DNA of 64,000 bases from Escherichia coli (GCF_016903815.1 NZ_CP069973.1); one strand, 5' to 3'; counted from the stretch's first letter, positions 49,825 through 54,073 are shown. Notes: generated by a model not told the origin, from the letters alone. Program-made: numbers and translations.

Positions 49825-49857
49825 CCGTGACGAAACGGCTCAAAGGCGAGGTATAAA

Positions 49858-49975
49858 TTGAGTTTTTTTGATGAGTTGAAAAACTCTCTGGAAGAGGCTG
49901 TTGAGATTAGAAAGAACCTGCACGGGTGACCCGCTACGAAATTGCAGATGCTAAGGCTATTCGTGAGCAACTTCA
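49858..49975 (+). pseudogene. Remnant of an XRE/HigA-like antitoxin gene (frameshifted and truncated)
   Basis: A TTG start gives (M)SFFDELKNSLEEAVEIRKNLHG, then a stop. The +2 frame continues as TRYEIADAKAIREQLH. Together these resemble the N-terminal 40 or so residues of HTH antitoxins (SFFDELKxSLEEAVEI...VTRYEV.DVKAIR), but the HTH itself is missing. Confidence 0.55.
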
Positions 49976-50050
49976 TACTCCAACCGACCAGTTGCGTAGC
50001 CAGAATGCAATCAAATCTGACAGTCCGCTTCGGCGCGCGCTTTGGTGTAT

Positions 50051-50260
50051 TTACCGGAGTAAATCAGCGTGCCATGGAAAATTATGCGCAGCGCTTCTGC
50101 TGATTTGCGTACCTTCGCTGATGATAAGTCCTGCACTGGCGCGCTGCGCGTAATAGTCCGCCATCATGTCAGTCGTAACGTCACCCGCACGGGAACGTGT
50201 CATCGGTGGCATTACAATACGGTTTTTTAATGGCAACGCATTCAGCGCATATTTAGCAAA
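50051..50260 (-). pseudogene. Remnant of an Old Yellow Enzyme / NemA-like NADH:flavin oxidoreductase (N-terminal about 45 codons only)
   Basis: The minus strand reads FAKYALNALPLKNRIVMPPMTRSRAGDVTTDMMADYYAQRASAGLIISEGTQIS, the OYE N-terminal signature. A stop codon lies directly upstream of FAKY, there is no ATG, and similarity is lost after TQIS. Confidence 0.65.
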
Positions 50261-50284
50261 TTACGTAATGGGTCCCTTGCGCGG

Positions 50285-50497
50285 TTATTTGTACAGTTCG
50301 GCACTCATGGTGACGGTATTGCCCATGCGAGCGCTGGTGATTTTGTATTCAGAGGCGTTCATCTCTTTCGCTTTCTGCGCAATAACTGCTTCCGCAGAAT
50401 CCAGTGTTGTACCGGTTGCTGTCACGCTTTGCGCCGATGCGTTAAACGCCGCGACAGAGAAAAGAGAAGCTGTAAAAATTGCGATGATCGTTTTCAT
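50285..50497 (-). CDS. YdgH/BhsA/McbA-family (DUF1471) small periplasmic protein
   Basis: 70 aa: MKTIIAIFTASLFSVAAFNASAQSVTATGTTLDSAEAVIAQKAKEMNASEYKITSARMGNTVTMSAELYK. It has a signal peptide plus the typical DUF1471 C-terminus. The ORF track N-terminal extension is rejected. Confidence 0.8.
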   Translation of the reverse strand: MKTIIAIFTASLFSVAAFNASAQSVTATGTTLDSAEAVIAQKAKEMNASEYKITSARMGNTVTMSAELYK

Positions 50498-50654
50498 GTT
50501 TATATTCCAGAGTGTCTTAATTGTTTGGCGTTTATTAACGCGATGGGGAGAGAATACGCCTGCTGCCTGATAACATAAATGATACAAATGACAATAGACT
50601 ATTCTGTTTTTGTTAATAATCAGACGCCGGACGTTCCGACGCCTGTCGATCGCA

Positions 50655-51071
50655 TCAGGCAACAAAGTTGTCCTTCAGCGCCTTGAGACCATCCCGATAA
50701 ATGCCGGTAAACAGCGCCTCGGCCTCTTCGTTCGTCACATTCACCGGGGTGAATTCACCGAACCATTCCACACGGGAAACCTGGCTGTCGGCGGTTTCAT
50801 GAACGGTAATGGTGGAGAGGTAATCCACCACCGGGAACGGTGCCTGAATAATGGAATAGGTATAACTGCGTTGACGGTTATCAAACGCTTCCAGACGTTC
50901 AACCACAGTGCCGCCGTCAGAGGTTGTCAGCGAACGAACGCGACCGCCTTCTGTCACTACGCTTTTCGGGATGAACGGCAGCCAGTCTGGCAGCGCATCA
51001 AAGCCGCCCATCAATTGCCATACGGTGTCGGCAGAAGCCGGAATTTCGATCGATACAGTTGTTTTAGCCAT
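50655..51071 (-). CDS. SRPBCC (START/Bet v1/polyketide-cyclase-like) family protein
   Basis: 138-aa ORF MAKTTVSIEIPASADTVWQLMGGFDALPDWLPFI... has the typical SRPBCC N-terminal pattern. It lies 25 nt downstream of the SDR gene. Confidence 0.7.
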   Translation of the reverse strand: MAKTTVSIEIPASADTVWQLMGGFDALPDWLPFIPKSVVTEGGRVRSLTTSDGGTVVERLEAFDNRQRSYTYSIIQAPFPVVDYLSTITVHETADSQVSRVEWFGEFTPVNVTNEEAEALFTGIYRDGLKALKDNFVA

Positions 51072-51096
51072 GATAATTTTCTCTTAATTTATAGGG

Positions 51097-51913: not shown

Positions 51914-52924
51914 TTAACGGGTCGGCAGCGGAGCGTTTTCCGCAACCAGATTTTGACGGCGCATTTCTGCCCAGAATTCAGCCGGAACAGGCGCATTCAG
52001 TGCAGCCAGATCTTCTGCCATACGGCCAGGACGGCTGGAGCCAGGAATAACCGCTGCAACGGCCGGGTTTGCCAGCGCGAACTGCAGCGCAGCTGCTTTA
52101 ACGTTCACATTGAAACGTGTGGCAATGGCGTTAATTTGCGCCACTTTCTGCTGGATGGCCGCAGAGGCTTTCTGATATTCAAAGTGCTCGCCGCCTGCCA
52201 GTACGCCAGAGCTGTATGGACCGCCCACAACGATATCCACGTTCTGTTCCAGTGCTTCTGGCATCAGGTGTTGCAGCGCACGTTCGTGATCCAGCAGGGA
52301 ATAACGCCCCGCCAGCAGGAAAGCATCTGGCTTCGGTTCGTCCAGCGCCAGCGTCAGTTCGCAAGGTTCGACGCGGTTCACACCTAGTCCCCAGGCTTTA
52401 ATCACACCTTCGTCACGCAAACGTGTCAGTGCACGAAACGCACCGGTACGAGCAATGTTGAACTGCTCCAGCCAGCTGTCACCGTAGAAGTCCTGCGCCG
52501 GGTCGTGGATCCAGACAATGTCCAGACGGTCTGTTTTCAGGCGTTTCAGGCTGTCTTCAATCGAGCGCAGCGTGGCGTCAGCAGAGTAGTCATTCAGAAT
52601 TTTGTTTTTCAGGCCGTGTTCGAACAGGCCACCTTTTTCACCGAAATCCCGTTTTGCCGGATCTTCCATTTCGTCCAGCATGATGCGACCGACTTTGCTA
52701 CTCAGAACGTATTCATCGCGTGGATACTGAGACAGCGCTTCACCCATGCGGATTTCAGAAAGGCCAGAGCCGTACAGCGGCGCGGTATCAAAGTAACGCA
52801 CACCCAGGTTCCAGGCTTCGCTCACGGTGGCGTGAGCCTCTTCTTCCGGAATGGCACGGAACATGTTGCCGAGTGGTGCGCCGCCTAAGCCAATTTTGCC
52901 GGGAAGTAAATTTTTGATGCTCAT
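51914..52924 (-). CDS. Aldo/keto reductase (resembles the D-threo-aldose 1-dehydrogenase-like subgroup)
   Basis: 336-aa ORF MSIKNLLPGKIGLGGAPLGNMF...YFDTAPLYG... with an AKR fold signature. The subgroup assignment is tentative. Confidence 0.85.
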   Translation of the reverse strand: MSIKNLLPGKIGLGGAPLGNMFRAIPEEEAHATVSEAWNLGVRYFDTAPLYGSGLSEIRMGEALSQYPRDEYVLSSKVGRIMLDEMEDPAKRDFGEKGGLFEHGLKNKILNDYSADATLRSIEDSLKRLKTDRLDIVWIHDPAQDFYGDSWLEQFNIARTGAFRALTRLRDEGVIKAWGLGVNRVEPCELTLALDEPKPDAFLLAGRYSLLDHERALQHLMPEALEQNVDIVVGGPYSSGVLAGGEHFEYQKASAAIQQKVAQINAIATRFNVNVKAAALQFALANPAVAAVIPGSSRPGRMAEDLAALNAPVPAEFWAEMRRQNLVAENAPLPTR

Positions 52925-52975
52925 AAGATGTCCTCAATTATTCGGTTTGGGTTAGGGCGTTTTTTGCTATCACCC

Positions 52976-52991
52976 TGTGACGTGGATCACA
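52976..52991. promoter_or_regulatory. CRP-binding site (perfect core) in the divergent AKR / LysR control region
   Basis: TGTGA-CGTGGA-TCACA matches both consensus half-sites (TGTGA-N6-TCACA). Its centre is about 59 bp from the AKR ATG and about 73 bp from the LysR ATG. Confidence 0.65.
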
Positions 52992-53056
52992 ATACCTTGC
53001 GATGTTGTGACTTGATAGGACATAATTCGTCTGACTTAAGTCCTTTGAGGTCTAAC

Positions 53057-53944
53057 ATGATTGATTTACGCCAACTGAAGTACTTCGTGGTGGTCGCAGA
53101 AGAAGAGCACGTGGGACGCGCAGCCGAGCGATTACATATCTCGCAATCACCGCTGAGCCGCCAGATTGCACAACTGGAAGAACGGCTGGGGCTGACGCTG
53201 TTTGAGCGTAATCAGCAGCGCATTCGCCTGACCGCTGATGGACAGACATTCCTTGCCGAAACACGTTCGTTGCTGACACACGCCAACCGCCTGGAGTCGT
53301 TAGGCAAACGCCTGGGACGGGGGGAAGATGGTGGCTTGTGTATTGGCTATATCGAAAACGCCATGCATTCCGGTGTGCTTTCTACGGCGCTACGTACGTT
53401 ACGTGTATCGCGTCCGAATGTGCATATCGCACTTTACAGCCAACCACCGGCTACCCAGATTGAAGGCCTGCGCCAGCGCAGTCTCGATTTTTCTCTGGTC
53501 GATACGCCGCCCACCGACAGCGAGCAGGATCTGGAATATATTCAGGTTCTGGATGATCGAATGTTGTTGGCCTTACCGCAAAATCATCCTCTGGCGCAGG
53601 AGGAAAACCTTGTCGCGTCACAACTTGGCGATGAGCAGTGGATTGCGGTGATTCATAACGACGATGCGCATTCTCGCGATCATTTTGTCGCCGCCTGTGT
53701 TAACGCCGGGCTTAATCCTGATATTCGCCTGGAAGCGGGTGAACCCCTCACGGCATTAGGTTTGGTCGCTGCGGGATTAGGTCTGGCCTTAATTCAACAT
53801 AGTCTGCGTCATAATGCGCCGGAAGGGGTGGTATTACGTGAATTGCCGTGGATGAATTATTCAACGCAATTATGGGCAGCCTGGCATAAAGCCAACCAAC
53901 GTCCGCTGGTTTCCCATTTCCGCCAGATTTTGCGCGGTGAATAA
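53057..53944 (+). CDS. LysR-type transcriptional regulator
   Basis: Start placed at MIDLRQLKYFVVVAEEEHVGRAAERLHISQSPLSRQIAQLE (canonical LTTR N-terminus), 295 aa. It is divergent from the AKR-SDR-SRPBCC genes. Confidence 0.88.
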   Translation: MIDLRQLKYFVVVAEEEHVGRAAERLHISQSPLSRQIAQLEERLGLTLFERNQQRIRLTADGQTFLAETRSLLTHANRLESLGKRLGRGEDGGLCIGYIENAMHSGVLSTALRTLRVSRPNVHIALYSQPPATQIEGLRQRSLDFSLVDTPPTDSEQDLEYIQVLDDRMLLALPQNHPLAQEENLVASQLGDEQWIAVIHNDDAHSRDHFVAACVNAGLNPDIRLEAGEPLTALGLVAAGLGLALIQHSLRHNAPEGVVLRELPWMNYSTQLWAAWHKANQRPLVSHFRQILRGE

Positions 53945-53950
53945 AACGTT

Positions 53951-53975
53951 AAGCGGGAACCATGAGTTCCCGCTT
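53951..53975 (+). terminator. Hairpin terminator after the LysR gene
   Basis: AAGCGGGAAC-catg-AGTTCCCGCTT followed by GATTT (short U-tract). Confidence 0.55.
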
Positions 53976-54056
53976 GATTTGAGATGTCAGTCCGCATCTG
54001 AGCTAATACGCTTAAAGAGAATTCTGCCTTTTCGGGGACTCATCATTTAACTAATA

Positions 54057-54073
54057 CCGGATGCGATGCTGGC
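54057..54073. repeat. Left half of a REP palindromic unit split by the IS
   Basis: CCGGATGCGATGCTGGC pairs with the right half at 55506-55522. Confidence 0.8.

What the first reader, a model, noticed from the sequence alone, without database searches (positions are those of the whole stretch)
49825..54073. Accessory island between nadR and ettA: LysR-controlled AKR-SDR-SRPBCC oxidoreductase cluster plus a DUF1471 gene
As I recall, nadR and ettA are separated by only tens of bp in K-12. Here 5.7 kb intervene, including the IS. The intact part is a minus-strand run of an aldo/keto reductase (336 aa), a classical SDR (265 aa) and an SRPBCC/START-like ligand-binding protein (138 aa), with 19- and 25-nt gaps that suggest an operon. 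A divergent LysR regulator lies upstream and a separately spaced DUF1471 (BhsA/McbA-like) stress protein lies downstream. Two NAD(P)H oxidoreductases plus a hydrophobic-ligand-binding protein under an LTTR suggests catabolism or detoxification of a specific carbonyl, aldose or quinone-type small molecule. The substrate cannot be read from the sequence.
Basis: partly seen in the sequence, partly recalled or inferred. Interest (0 to 1): 0.5.

Follow-up and report, generated by a model that had tools for sequence, protein, structure and literature searches.

The report
LysR-controlled reductase operon islet in E. coli
About 9% of complete E. coli genomes carry this small accessory gene block between nadR and ettA: a regulator plus an aldo-keto reductase, a second dehydrogenase and a small ligand-binding protein; the block is real and its core is conserved across bacterial phyla, but what it does has never been determined.

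Summary
Window 50025-53975 is a 3.95-kb accessory islet in the variable nadR-ettA spacer. It occurs in 482 of 5426 complete E. coli genomes, always as one chromosomal copy, and K-12 lacks it. The K-12 spacer is 307 bp, not tens of bp.

The islet holds a divergent LysR regulator, an AKR-SDR-SRPBCC operon (19- and 25-nt gaps, terminator hairpin after the SRPBCC gene) and a separate DUF1471 gene.

The new point is the module's distribution. LysR, AKR and the 138-aa SRPBCC protein are found in at least 596 species of Proteobacteria, Actinomycetota, Bacillota and Bacteroidota. Identities to E. coli are high (AKR 72-78%, LysR 60-75%, SRPBCC 55-68%). The divergent promoter/operator is conserved without gaps. 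The SDR is a Pseudomonas/Enterobacterales addition.

No transporter or downstream catabolic enzyme travels with the module. I therefore read it as an inducible one- or two-step NAD(P)-dependent conversion, most likely detoxification of a carbonyl or quinone. This function is inferred; the substrate is unknown and I found no literature on the module.

The SRPBCC fold is closest to uncharacterised Bacillus 'XoxI' structures and then to plant PYL abscisic-acid receptors.

Verdict: an ordinary kind of locus, but an uncharacterised and unusually conserved module.

The parts
49858..49994 (+). nadS pseudogene remnant. It has lost its start codon and is frameshifted. It belongs to the older content of the nadR-ettA hotspot, not to the acquired islet.
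   Evidence: PGAP note in the identical strain. tblastn with an intact NadS from L096 gives 71-76% identity in two frames. K-12 carries a shorter remnant. Other E. coli have an intact relE/parE-nadS pair here.
50029..50266 (-). Stump of an OYE/NemA-like alkene reductase gene. It consists of the first ~64 codons plus a 74-bp internal piece. A 686-bp internal deletion and loss of the 3' end make it non-functional. It marks the left edge of the islet.
   Evidence: PF00724 E 5.7e-10 and NCBIfam N-ethylmaleimide reductase 3.4e-15 on the 61-aa ORF. blastn/tblastn against the intact 365-aa genes of E. ruysiae L016 and Citrobacter L006. All 482 islet-positive E. coli cover at most 27% of the gene.
50285..50497 (-). 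DUF1471 (YdgH/BhsA/McbA-like) small protein of 70 aa with an N-terminal signal-peptide-like segment. It is probably its own transcription unit.
   Evidence: PF07338 E 9.9e-11 (42 bits against a cut-off of 27). It lies 157 nt downstream of the SRPBCC gene, beyond a terminator hairpin. It is present only in Enterobacterales versions of the module (5 of 80 loci). dN/dS is 0-0.06.
50621..50645 (-). Terminator-like hairpin directly after the SRPBCC stop codon. It has an 11-bp stem followed by a weak U-tract (UGAUUAUU).
   Evidence: RNA fold -17.9 kcal/mol, z -3.0. Citrobacter and Klebsiella have hairpins of different sequence at the same place, z -3.6 and -3.8, the Klebsiella one followed by UUUUAU. 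The simple terminator scan did not call it because the U-tract is weak.
50655..51071 (-). SRPBCC / Polyketide_cyc2 protein of 138 aa ('XoxI/MxaD-like'), cytoplasmic, with a helix-grip fold. It is the conserved partner of the AKR.
   Evidence: PF10604 E 8.6e-31. 61% identical to Bacillus cereus XoxI 3CNW, TM 0.92. The next fold neighbours are Y. pestis YPO0625 and plant PYL receptors, TM 0.75-0.86. A full AKR lies directly upstream in 70 of 80 species loci.
51097..51894 (-). Classical SDR oxidoreductase of 265 aa.
   Evidence: PF13561 2.9e-44 and PF00106 1.8e-37. The motifs GSTSGIG, NNLG and S...YGVTK can be read in the translation. The ortholog structure 8G9M matches at E 7e-137 and has no assigned function. 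It sits between AKR and SRPBCC only in Enterobacterales (8/8) and Pseudomonas (21/21).
51914..52924 (-). Aldo-keto reductase of 336 aa, first gene of the operon. The catalytic tetrad D46/Y51/K77/H140 is intact.
   Evidence: PF00248 E 6.6e-45. The tetrad residues are invariant in cross-phylum alignments. 72-78% identical to orthologs in Pseudomonas, Burkholderiales, Streptomyces and Bacillaceae. The nearest solved structures are L-galactose dehydrogenases at only 23-28% identity.
52925..53056 (.). Divergent regulatory region of 132 bp.
- Predicted AKR promoter: -35 CTATCA at 53013-53018, -10 TATTGT at 52989-52994 (minus strand).
- Predicted lysR promoter: -35 at 52997-53002, -10 CATAAT at 53021-53026 (plus strand).
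- Conserved putative LysR-binding block: 53009-53043.
- Perfect CRP-type palindrome TGTGA-N6-TCACA: 52976-52991.
   Evidence: An ungapped alignment of 13 genera from 4 classes gives invariant columns that fit -35 TTGGAC, an 18-nt spacer and -10 TAnnnT, plus a GGACTYAAGT...GTCTTGGACAGTC block. The lysR promoter comes from the consensus scan. The CRP-type pattern occurs twice in the window against 0.07 expected. All of this is prediction; none is tested.
53057..53944 (+). LysR-type transcriptional regulator of 295 aa, divergent from the operon.
   Evidence: PF00126 and PF03466. The PGAP start is the same. Orthologs 60-75% identical sit in the same divergent position in 52 of 80 species loci, including Streptomyces.
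53951..53975 (.). 11-bp-stem hairpin just after the lysR stop codon. It coincides with the right edge of the DNA shared with E. ruysiae.
   Evidence: Terminator scan. The blastn end point of the islet is 53975.
54074..55505 (+). IS1397 (IS3 family, 1432 bp) inserted into a REP palindrome downstream of ettA, with a 4-bp target duplication TGGC. It is a later, lineage-specific event and not part of the islet.
   Evidence: RefSeq annotation. An IS-free islet allele (L003) shows the duplicated 4 bp. The full 5.9-kb query that includes the IS is covered in only 96 of the 482 genomes.

Best explanation
A 3.95-kb accessory islet with no mobility genes sits in the variable nadR-ettA spacer of a minority of E. 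coli. It carries a horizontally spread, strongly conserved module: a LysR-type regulator transcribed divergently from an AKR-SDR-SRPBCC operon.

Proposed mechanism, with what is shown and what is inferred:
1. The regulator binds a conserved block that overlaps its own promoter and the -35 region of the operon promoter. This gives autorepression and effector-dependent activation. It is inferred from conserved geometry.
2. A small-molecule effector, probably the substrate or a close relative, switches the operon on. Inferred.
3. The AKR, whose catalytic tetrad is intact, performs an NAD(P)(H)-dependent carbonyl/alcohol (or lactol) interconversion. The enzyme family is shown; substrate and direction are unknown.
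4. The SRPBCC protein is the AKR's obligate partner. It binds, presents or isomerises a largely hydrophobic ligand. The partnership is shown by gene linkage across four phyla; the role is inferred.
5. The SDR adds a second redox step in Pseudomonas and Enterobacterales.

Nothing else travels with the module: no transporter and no follow-on catabolic enzyme. Occasional neighbours are OYE alkene reductases, HxlR-type regulators and DUF1471 stress proteins. The most likely job is therefore inducible detoxification or conversion of one class of reactive carbonyl, enone or quinone compound, not a growth-substrate pathway.

The DUF1471 gene is separately transcribed. The OYE gene that followed it in the ancestral island is dead in all E. 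coli.
For: Genes and spacing.

Accessory distribution: 482 of 5426 genomes; absent from K-12.

The module moves as a unit:
- The same LysR<->AKR-SDR-SRPBCC arrangement is found at unrelated loci in Citrobacter, Klebsiella, Enterobacter, Pseudomonas and E. ruysiae.
- The E. ruysiae copy is 97.6% identical to the window, whereas its flanking core genes pitA-yhiN are only 93.8-94.4% identical to E. coli.

Cross-phylum linkage:
- The SRPBCC ortholog was found in at least 596 species.
- Among the 80 retained loci, 70 have a full AKR directly upstream on the same strand, 52 have the divergent LysR ortholog and 29 have the SDR in between.

Conservation: AKR 72-78%, LysR 60-75%, SRPBCC 55-68% identity to E. 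coli across phyla.

Regulation: the regulatory DNA aligns without gaps across Gamma-, Beta- and Alphaproteobacteria and Actinomycetota. Invariant columns match -35, -10 and a dyad-rich block next to lysR.

Operon end: a hairpin after the SRPBCC gene is kept in three genera with different sequences.

The genes are under purifying selection in Escherichia, dN/dS 0.02-0.16.

No other protein family recurs across genera around the module.

Hints toward stress or detoxification:
- An intact OYE follows the module in E. ruysiae and Citrobacter.
- HxlR-family regulators replace LysR in 5 of 13 Bacillota loci, and an OYE lies next to one of them.
- DUF1471 relatives are BhsA/YhcN/RclB stress proteins.
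Against: - No expression, binding or enzyme data exist for any ortholog that I could find.
- The nearest characterised AKRs by sequence and fold are aldose 1-dehydrogenases (L-galactose dehydrogenases). These oxidise sugars rather than reduce toxic carbonyls, although identity is only 23-28%.
- OYE, HxlR and DUF1471 neighbours are each present in a minority of loci.
- The E. coli AKR -35 hexamer is degenerate, and a CRP-type palindrome overlaps the predicted -10/+1. The real promoter logic in E. coli may therefore differ from my model.
- The U-tract of the E. coli terminator is weak, so read-through into DUF1471 is possible.
- The operon may already be decaying in part of the population: the O145:H28 allele has a nonsense codon at the invariant W318 of the AKR.
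Confidence: 0.45

Rival explanations
1. The AKR is an oxidative aldose or lactol 1-dehydrogenase, like D-threo-aldose / L-fucose / L-galactose dehydrogenase. The module would feed a rare sugar or sugar-like lactol into metabolism, with the SDR handling the next oxidation or reduction. The SRPBCC would be an accessory protein, for example an anomer- or ring-form-handling protein.
For: The best PDB matches by sequence and by fold are plant and Luteolibacter L-galactose dehydrogenases. JGI and some NCBI records name orthologs 'D-threo-aldose 1-dehydrogenase'. A perfect CRP-type site in the Enterobacteriaceae promoter would suit a carbon-source gene.
Against: Identity to those enzymes is only 23-28%, and no NCBIfam equivalog cut-off is approached (best is YdjG, 72 bits against 550). 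No lactonase, dehydratase, aldolase, kinase or transporter recurs next to the module in 80 species. The names are automatic transfers. An SRPBCC pocket is typically suited to hydrophobic ligands (general knowledge of the fold).
Confidence: 0.2
2. The SRPBCC protein is not a carrier or enzyme but a ligand-gated regulatory partner, as plant PYL receptors are for PP2C phosphatases. On binding a small molecule it would bind and switch the AKR (or the LysR protein). The pair would then be a sensor-effector couple.
For: After its own orthologs and YPO0625, the closest folds are dozens of PYL receptors (TM 0.75-0.86, 18-27% identity), including the ABA-independent PYL13. phmmer also reaches PYL9/PYL10 at E about 4e-4. 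A 2025 paper reports that a Paraburkholderia PYL homolog binds plant PP2Cs without ABA, and notes that the native role of bacterial PYL-like proteins is unknown (PMC12717121). The very high conservation of both AKR and SRPBCC would fit a protein-protein interface.
Against: No fusion of the two proteins appears among the 150 best representative clusters. No interaction data exist. The paper states that the bacterial homologs differ from plant PYLs in the CL2 gate region. In this protein I see no SGLPA or HRL motif; that check rests on my recall of the plant motifs and inspection of the sequence. I could not confirm that the published bacterial PYLs belong to this same family, because their sequences are not in the held text.
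Confidence: 0.12
3. The module is a resistance determinant against one hydrophobic natural product, such as an antibiotic, a phytoalexin or a mycotoxin. The AKR (and SDR) would inactivate the compound by reducing a key carbonyl, and the SRPBCC protein would sequester it.
For: Fold neighbours include AKRtyl (tylosin-modifying) and DepB/AKR6D1 (deoxynivalenol detoxification). The module is concentrated in soil and plant-associated genera such as Streptomyces, Pseudomonas, Paraburkholderia, the Bacillus cereus group and Paenibacillus. Its stand-alone, horizontally mobile, regulator-linked architecture is typical of resistance cassettes.
Against: The similarities to AKRtyl and DepB are generic AKR-level (19-22% identity). 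The module was not seen on E. coli plasmids (0 of 482 places). No efflux pump is linked. This rival overlaps largely with the best explanation.
Confidence: 0.12
4. The genes are merely neighbours. They are independently transcribed and have unrelated functions, so the 'cluster' is an accident of insertion history.
For: No direct transcript evidence is available. DUF1471 does appear to be a separate unit.
Against: The same order, strand and short gaps recur across four phyla and at different chromosomal sites. The divergent regulatory DNA is conserved. All genes are under purifying selection.
Confidence: 0.03

Closest known systems
LysR-type regulator with a divergently transcribed oxidoreductase operon (the classical LTTR architecture; the E. 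coli K-12 yafC-dkgB LysR/AKR pair is an example recalled from memory)
   Same: The regulator has HTH_1 and LysR_substrate domains and is divergent from its target. The two predicted promoters interdigitate, and a conserved dyad-rich block overlaps the regulator's own promoter and the target -35.
   Different: This regulator, its operator and its target genes are conserved together at 60-78% protein identity from E. coli to Streptomyces, which is unusual for LTTR systems. Its best NCBIfam matches (AlsR 220 bits, PRK09986 204 bits) are far below their cut-offs, so it belongs to no named regulator family. The effector is unknown.
Bacillus cereus 'XoxI' (PDB 3CNW) and B. thuringiensis Q6HG14 (PDB 3F08), structural-genomics SRPBCC proteins
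   Same: They are orthologs: about 61% identity, TM 0.92, same length. In the Bacillus cereus-group loci the homolog also sits directly after the orthologous AKR (L026, L028, L035, L046).
   Different: Those structures have no assigned function or associated paper that I could find. The Bacillus versions lack both the SDR and the LysR regulator.
Plant PYR/PYL/RCAR abscisic-acid receptors and the recently described bacterial PYL-like proteins (PMC12717121)
   Same: They share the helix-grip fold and are the best non-orthologous structural matches (TM 0.75-0.86). There is weak but detectable sequence similarity.
   Different: I see no SGLPA gate or HRL latch motif here; the plant motifs are recalled from memory, and one search confirms that the bacterial homologs diverge in CL2. 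No PP2C partner gene is linked. Here the conserved neighbour is an AKR.
L-galactose dehydrogenase and D-threo-aldose (L-fucose) 1-dehydrogenase type AKRs
   Same: They are the closest solved structures by sequence and fold. They share the (beta/alpha)8 barrel and the D-Y-K-H tetrad.
   Different: Identity is only 23-28%. This AKR has an extra ~25-residue segment (residues 83-108, low model confidence). No sugar-pathway genes are linked.
Neopinone isomerase (Bet v 1/PR10 fold) working with codeinone reductase (an AKR) in opium poppy, and MxaD as an accessory protein of methanol dehydrogenase (both recalled from memory, not checked here)
   Same: Both are precedents for a small helix-grip or MxaD-like protein acting as a catalytic or accessory partner of a dehydrogenase or reductase. 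Some sources name the E. coli protein 'MxaD family' or 'xoxI'.
   Different: The resemblance is only by fold class and logic. No sequence relationship was tested, and MxaD is periplasmic whereas this protein has no signal peptide.
nemRA-gloA type electrophile-response genes of E. coli (OYE N-ethylmaleimide reductase NemA)
   Same: The ancestral island (E. ruysiae, Citrobacter) ends with an intact NemA-like OYE (397 bits against the 403-bit subfamily cut-off). That gives three NAD(P)H oxidoreductases in one block.
   Different: The OYE is destroyed in every E. coli copy. The regulator here is LysR-type, not TetR-type NemR. No glyoxalase is linked.

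Membership tests
Aldo-keto reductase superfamily (PF00248) | (beta/alpha)8 barrel domain that matches the family profile | tested here: met
   PF00248 E 6.6e-45, residues 10-322. The AF2 model's top 50 Foldseek hits are all AKRs.
Aldo-keto reductase superfamily (PF00248) | Catalytic tetrad Asp-Tyr-Lys-His | tested here: met
   D46, Y51, K77 and H140 are invariant in the cross-phylum alignments A2 and A5. Assigning them as the tetrad relies on the standard AKR motif positions (DxxxxY, K, IHxP/D).
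D-threo-aldose / L-galactose 1-dehydrogenase (the name some sources give orthologs) | Orthology to a characterised aldose 1-dehydrogenase, or demonstrated activity on aldoses | tested here: inconclusive
   Identity to solved L-galactose dehydrogenases is only 23-28%. No NCBIfam equivalog reaches its cut-off. Activity cannot be tested with these tools.
Classical short-chain dehydrogenase/reductase | Rossmann TGxxxGxG motif, NNAG motif and Ser-Tyr-Lys catalytic residues | tested here: met
   PF13561 2.9e-44 and PF00106 1.8e-37. GSTSGIG, NNLG and S...YGVTK can be read in the translation. An Arg-Lys after strand beta2 (VVVVGRK) suggests NADP(H), which is inference.
SRPBCC / Polyketide_cyc2 (helix-grip fold) | Profile match and a helix-grip fold with a long C-terminal helix packed on a beta-sheet | tested here: met
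   PF10604 E 8.6e-31. The model has seven strands and helix 114-137, TM 0.92 to 3CNW.
PYR/PYL/RCAR abscisic-acid receptors | Gate (SGLPA) and latch (HRL) loops, and the ABA-contacting Lys | tested here: not met
   I see no SGLPA or HRL motif in the 138-aa sequence. The plant motifs are recalled from memory, and the positional equivalence of the SDGGT and QAPFPV segments is my own inspection without a computed alignment. The paper confirms that bacterial homologs differ in CL2. This is fold-level resemblance only.
LysR-type transcriptional regulators | N-terminal HTH_1 plus C-terminal LysR substrate-binding domain | tested here: met
   PF00126 3.7e-24 and PF03466 2e-38.
LysR-type transcriptional regulators | Divergent target promoter with a regulator-binding site overlapping the regulator's own promoter | tested here: inconclusive
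   The divergent position is conserved in 52 of 80 loci, and a conserved block lies at 53009-53043. Binding itself is not testable here.
DUF1471 / YdgH-BhsA-McbA family | Profile match in a small secreted protein | tested here: met
   PF07338, 42 bits against a cut-off of 27. It stays below all NCBIfam equivalog cut-offs (BhsA 31 against 90), so it is a family member but not BhsA, YhcN or RclB itself. The signal peptide is judged by eye only.
Genomic island in the strict sense | Integrase or other mobility gene, tRNA or att site, flanking direct repeats | tested here: not met
   There is no integrase or tRNA. The edges are a truncated OYE gene and a terminator hairpin. IS1397 is a later insertion found in only 96 of 482 carriers. 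'Accessory islet in a variable spacer' is the better label; the same spacer holds a relE/parE-nadS pair in other strains.
IS1397 (IS3 family) | Two overlapping transposase ORFs, terminal inverted repeats, short target duplication, insertion into a REP palindromic unit | tested here: met
   HTH and rve domains. RefSeq names it IS1397 with a programmed frameshift. The REP preference is known from the literature and recalled from memory.

The most novel reading that the evidence does not exclude
The LysR / AKR / 138-aa SRPBCC triad is an undescribed, cross-phylum sensor-enzyme system. In it a bacterial PYL-like protein would act as a ligand-dependent partner of an aldo-keto reductase, gating, activating or feeding it. 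This would give the first native function and native binding partner for the bacterial relatives of plant abscisic-acid receptors. It would also explain why all three proteins are conserved at 55-78% identity from E. coli to Streptomyces and Bacillus.
Probability: 0.12. Interest if true: 0.7.

Novelty: new member of a known kind. Interest (0 to 1): 0.35.

Why it matters
For E. coli biology this is a minor accessory trait. It is carried by about 9% of complete genomes, including the ST405-like lineage of this window and O145:H28 strains. It sits in a spacer that also hosts a toxin-antitoxin pair in other strains.

The wider point is the module itself. A regulator, its operator, an AKR and a PYL-like SRPBCC protein are kept together and almost unchanged across Proteobacteria, Actinomycetota, Bacillota and Bacteroidota. 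Yet no function, substrate or paper is attached to any member, and two crystal structures of the SRPBCC partner and one of the SDR lie unused.

The system is compact, is present in genetically tractable hosts (E. coli, Klebsiella, Pseudomonas, the Bacillus cereus group), and comes with its own candidate biosensor (the LysR protein plus its promoter). An inducer screen would therefore be a cheap way to assign a function to a large uncharacterised family. It might also show what bacterial PYL-like proteins do.

Tried and rejected
- **Literature.** Nine full-text searches found nothing on the module. The terms combined SRPBCC, polyketide cyclase, XoxI, aldo-keto reductase, short-chain dehydrogenase, LysR, D-threo-aldose 1-dehydrogenase and PYL with horizontal gene transfer. 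The only related item is the 2025 paper on bacterial PYL homologs. Its sequences are not in the held text, so I could not test whether they belong to this family.
- **Names.** Source names for the exact E. coli proteins are all generic.
- **Rfam.** Nothing was found in window 49700-55600 at E<=1 beyond two chance eukaryotic hits.
- **Riboswitch in Bacillota.** No riboswitch or other known RNA lies in the long AKR leaders of Bacillota or Bacteroidota loci that lack a LysR gene.
- **Gene fusion.** No AKR-SRPBCC fusion appears among the 150 best representative clusters; only tandem SRPBCC duplications do.
- **5'-UTR hairpin.** A small hairpin in the AKR 5' UTR (GGGCG...CGCCC) seemed to covary among Enterobacterales. 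The register shifts between genera and only a 3-bp GGG/CCC core is constant, so I dropped it.
- **CRP site as activator.** I could not fit the CRP-type palindrome to a class I or class II activating position. It overlaps the predicted -10/+1, and its role is left open.
- **Flank divergence.** Identity to K-12 is 91-99% per 300 bp and falls near the junction. That alone does not say whether the islet was gained or lost.
- **Neighbourhood clustering.** The ORF picker is crude in high-GC genomes and produces antisense artefacts. I rely on it only for the negative result that no further family recurs across genera.

Full report
**1. What is in the sequence**

The window is E. coli. The stretch 49700-55600 is 100% identical to several human isolates.

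Downstream of nadR (48571-49824) the ORF list, Pfam/NCBIfam scans and the RefSeq annotation of an identical strain agree on the content:
- a nadS pseudogene at 49858-49994 (+);
- a remnant of an OYE/NemA-like alkene reductase at 50029-50266 (-);
- a DUF1471 gene at 50285-50497 (-), 70 aa;
- an SRPBCC/Polyketide_cyc2 gene at 50655-51071 (-), 138 aa;
- a classical SDR at 51097-51894 (-), 265 aa;
- an aldo-keto reductase at 51914-52924 (-), 336 aa;
- a divergent LysR regulator at 53057-53944 (+), 295 aa;
- IS1397 at 54074-55505;
- ettA at 55534-57201 (-).

**2. Accessory status and the insertion site**

The block 50240-54000 is present in 482 of 5426 complete E. coli genomes. It is always chromosomal and single-copy, at 98.2-100% identity. 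At least 438 of these genomes share the same left junction.

K-12 MG1655 lacks the block. Its nadR-ettA spacer is 307 bp and holds a shorter nadS remnant plus REP elements.

K-12 homology ends at window 49961 and resumes at 55509. Other E. coli carry an intact relE/parE-nadS pair in this same spacer. The spacer is therefore a variable spot with at least three alternative contents.

The DNA shared with other genera runs from about 50025 to 53975. It carries no integrase, tRNA or flanking repeat.

IS1397 is a later event:
- Only 96 genomes cover the query that includes it.
- An IS-free allele shows the 4-bp duplication TGGC.
- The element sits inside a REP palindrome.

**3. The OYE stump**

In E. 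ruysiae and Citrobacter farmeri the DUF1471 gene is followed, after about 18 nt, by an intact 365-aa NemA-like OYE.

In the window only the first ~64 codons and a 74-bp internal piece remain. There is a 686-bp internal deletion and the 3' end is lost. All 482 islet-positive E. coli show the same degraded state, with at most 27% coverage. The deletion therefore predates the spread of the islet within E. coli.

**4. The module elsewhere**

The same LysR<->AKR-SDR-SRPBCC arrangement sits at unrelated chromosomal sites:
- in Citrobacter, next to fimbrial and EamA genes;
- in Klebsiella, between the gab genes and a polysaccharide cluster;
- in Enterobacter, next to a CDI toxin locus;
- in Pseudomonas;
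- in E. ruysiae, between yhiN/pitA and a ProA anti-phage gene.

The E. ruysiae copy is 97.6% identical to the window. The adjacent core genes pitA-yhiN are only 93.8-94.4% identical to any E. coli. The module has therefore moved between Escherichia lineages more recently than they diverged.

**5.

The AKR is 72-78% identical to proteins of Pseudomonas, Janthinobacterium/Duganella, Paraburkholderia, Streptomyces, Micromonospora and Bacillaceae.

They span Proteobacteria, Actinomycetota, Bacillota and Bacteroidota.

A tblastn census of the 80 retained loci found:
- a full-length AKR directly upstream on the same strand in 70, and clear deletion remnants in most of the others;
- the divergent LysR ortholog, 60-75% identical to E. 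coli's, in 52;
- the SDR between AKR and SRPBCC in 29, namely all 8 Enterobacterales and all 21 Pseudomonas;
- a 48%-identical SDR downstream instead in four Streptomyces loci;
- an HxlR-family regulator in place of LysR in 5 of 13 Bacillota loci;
- DUF1471 in 5 loci, all Enterobacterales;
- an OYE somewhere in the locus in 4.

All-against-all clustering of neighbouring ORFs found no other family that recurs across genera. There is no transporter, lactonase, dehydratase, aldolase or kinase.

All five intact E. coli genes are under purifying selection, with dN/dS 0.02-0.16 within Escherichia and against Citrobacter and Klebsiella.

**6. Regulation (predicted)**

The LysR-AKR intergenic regions of 13 genera from four classes align without gaps for about 68 nt, starting at the lysR start codon. 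The invariant and near-invariant columns fit four elements:
- the lysR Shine-Dalgarno sequence;
- a block GGACTYAAGT...(A)ATTATGTCTTGGACAGTC rich in GGAC/GTCC half-sites, which forms a perfect 8-bp-arm dyad in Streptomyces;
- an AKR promoter of -35 TTGGAC, an 18-nt spacer and -10 TAnnnT;
- in Proteobacteria, a lysR promoter (TTGCGA, 18-nt spacer, CATAAT) that the consensus scan also found.

The two promoters interdigitate. The conserved block (window 53009-53043) overlaps the lysR -10/+1 and the AKR -35. This is the textbook layout for autorepression plus effector-dependent activation by a LysR-type regulator.

In Enterobacterales the AKR -35 is degenerate (CTATCA). A perfect CRP-type palindrome, TGTGA-N6-TCACA (52976-52991), overlaps the predicted -10/+1. 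It is conserved in Escherichia, Citrobacter-like, Klebsiella, Enterobacter, Raoultella, Trabulsiella and Yersinia loci. Such a pattern is expected 0.07 times per window and occurs twice. I cannot assign it a role.

After the SRPBCC stop codon there is an 11-bp-stem hairpin (-17.9 kcal/mol, z -3.0). Citrobacter and Klebsiella have hairpins of different sequence at the same place. This supports an operon end there and a separate DUF1471 unit, although the E. coli U-tract is weak.

**7. The proteins**

AKR:
- The tetrad D46/Y51/K77/H140 is invariant.
- The AF2 model (pLDDT 75) is closest to plant and Luteolibacter L-galactose dehydrogenases. Identity is only 23-28% and TM about 0.7.
- Next come AKR11A, AKR6D1/DepB, AKRtyl, Kv-beta and YghZ.
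- No NCBIfam equivalog is approached.

SDR:
- It has the classical motifs.
- A near-identical structure (8G9M) and a Bacillus anthracis relative (3T4X) exist, neither with an assigned function.

SRPBCC:
- It is 61% identical to Bacillus cereus 'XoxI' (3CNW) and B. thuringiensis 3F08, with TM 0.92.
- After Yersinia YPO0625, the next several dozen structural neighbours are plant PYL abscisic-acid receptors (TM 0.75-0.86).
- A 2025 paper shows that some bacterial PYL homologs bind plant PP2Cs without ABA and have no known native role (PMC12717121). I could not verify that those proteins are members of this family.
- No AKR-SRPBCC fusion exists among the 150 best representative clusters.

**8. Interpretation**

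Shown:
- The locus is an accessory islet.
- The LysR/AKR/(SDR)/SRPBCC genes form a conserved, mobile unit under selection.
- The DUF1471 and OYE genes are lineage-specific additions, and the OYE is dead in E. coli.

Inferred:
- LysR control through the conserved block.
- Co-transcription of the three genes.
- A one- or two-step NAD(P)-dependent conversion of one small-molecule class.

I favour inducible detoxification or conversion of a reactive carbonyl, enone or quinone, with roughly 0.35-0.4 confidence for that specific reading. There are three reasons:
- The module stands alone.
- It is sometimes joined by OYE reductases, HxlR-type regulators and DUF1471 stress proteins.
- SRPBCC pockets usually take hydrophobic ligands.

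The main rival is an oxidative aldose or lactol dehydrogenase role. It is suggested by the AKR's nearest structures and by the CRP-type site, but weakened by the absence of any follow-on pathway genes.

A more novel reading is that the PYL-like protein is a ligand-gated partner of the AKR. The data do not exclude it.

**9. Verdict**

- Observation: confirmed, with corrections.
- Interpretation: partly supported. The architecture holds; the function is open.
- As a kind of thing it is ordinary, an LTTR-controlled oxidoreductase operon in an accessory islet. The module's breadth and degree of conservation, together with the complete absence of functional data, make it a reasonable target for a simple inducer and enzyme screen.
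- Also noted: the O145:H28 allele carries a nonsense codon at the invariant W318 of the AKR. The operon is therefore probably not functional in every carrier.

Noticed in passing
window 54074-55505 (flanks 54053-54073 and 55506-55526): IS1397 (1432 bp, IS3 family) is inserted in the loop of a REP palindrome (CCGGATGCG...CGCATCCGG) just downstream of ettA, with a 4-bp duplication TGGC. Only 96 of the 482 islet-carrying genomes have it at this site.
   Followed up: partly
window 49858-49994; L096 1165-1783; L005 4084-4195: The nadR-ettA spacer is a variable spot. Some E. coli have an intact relE/parE toxin gene plus nadS (an antitoxin-like HTH gene). K-12 and this window keep only different-length nadS remnants.
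   Followed up: partly
window 52976-52991: A perfect CRP-consensus palindrome, TGTGACGTGGATCACA, overlaps the predicted -10/+1 of the AKR promoter. It is conserved in Escherichia, Klebsiella, Enterobacter, Raoultella, Trabulsiella and Yersinia versions but not in Serratia, Pseudomonas or other phyla. The position does not fit class I or class II activation.
   Followed up: partly
window 10457-10472: This is the only other perfect TGTGA-N6-TCACA site in the 64-kb window (TGTGATTTATATCACA). Its context was not examined.
   Followed up: no
L002 (E. coli O145:H28 RM13516) 5175-6185, minus strand: The AKR allele has a premature stop at codon 318 (W318*, a residue invariant across phyla), which removes 19 C-terminal residues. 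PGAP annotates the shortened gene. How far the allele has spread was not measured.
   Followed up: partly
L049 (Paenibacillus sp. BSR1-1) 3921-7897; L059 (Sporosarcina) 4457-6411; L030 and L061 (the same Peribacillus contig): Some Bacillota carry tandem or multiple copies of the AKR-SRPBCC pair. L049 has three AKR and two SRPBCC genes in a row, and the Peribacillus contig has two separate loci.
   Followed up: no
L072, L092 (Pseudomonas); L067 (Micromonospora); L084 (Streptomyces): These are decayed versions of the module. Deletions join a LysR fragment to the 3' end of the AKR, while the SRPBCC gene (and the SDR where present) stays intact.
   Followed up: partly
window 52925-52975 and the equivalent 5' UTRs in L006, L008, L016-L022, L032: Small GC-rich hairpins occur in the predicted AKR 5' UTR of Enterobacterales (GGGCG...CGCCC, plus an extra TCCC...GGGA hairpin in Klebsiella, Raoultella and Yersinia).
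   Followed up: partly
L026, L028, L035, L046 (Bacillus cereus group), about 4330-4972: In the B. cereus group the AKR-SRPBCC pair has a leader of about 640 nt with no regulator gene and no Rfam match. How the pair is regulated there is unknown.
   Followed up: partly
L016 8670-12377: In E. ruysiae the module lies next to a large gene that matches the anti-phage protein ProA (1284 bits against the 1500-bit cut-off). The module therefore sits beside a defence-type variable region between it and pitA/yhiN.
   Followed up: no
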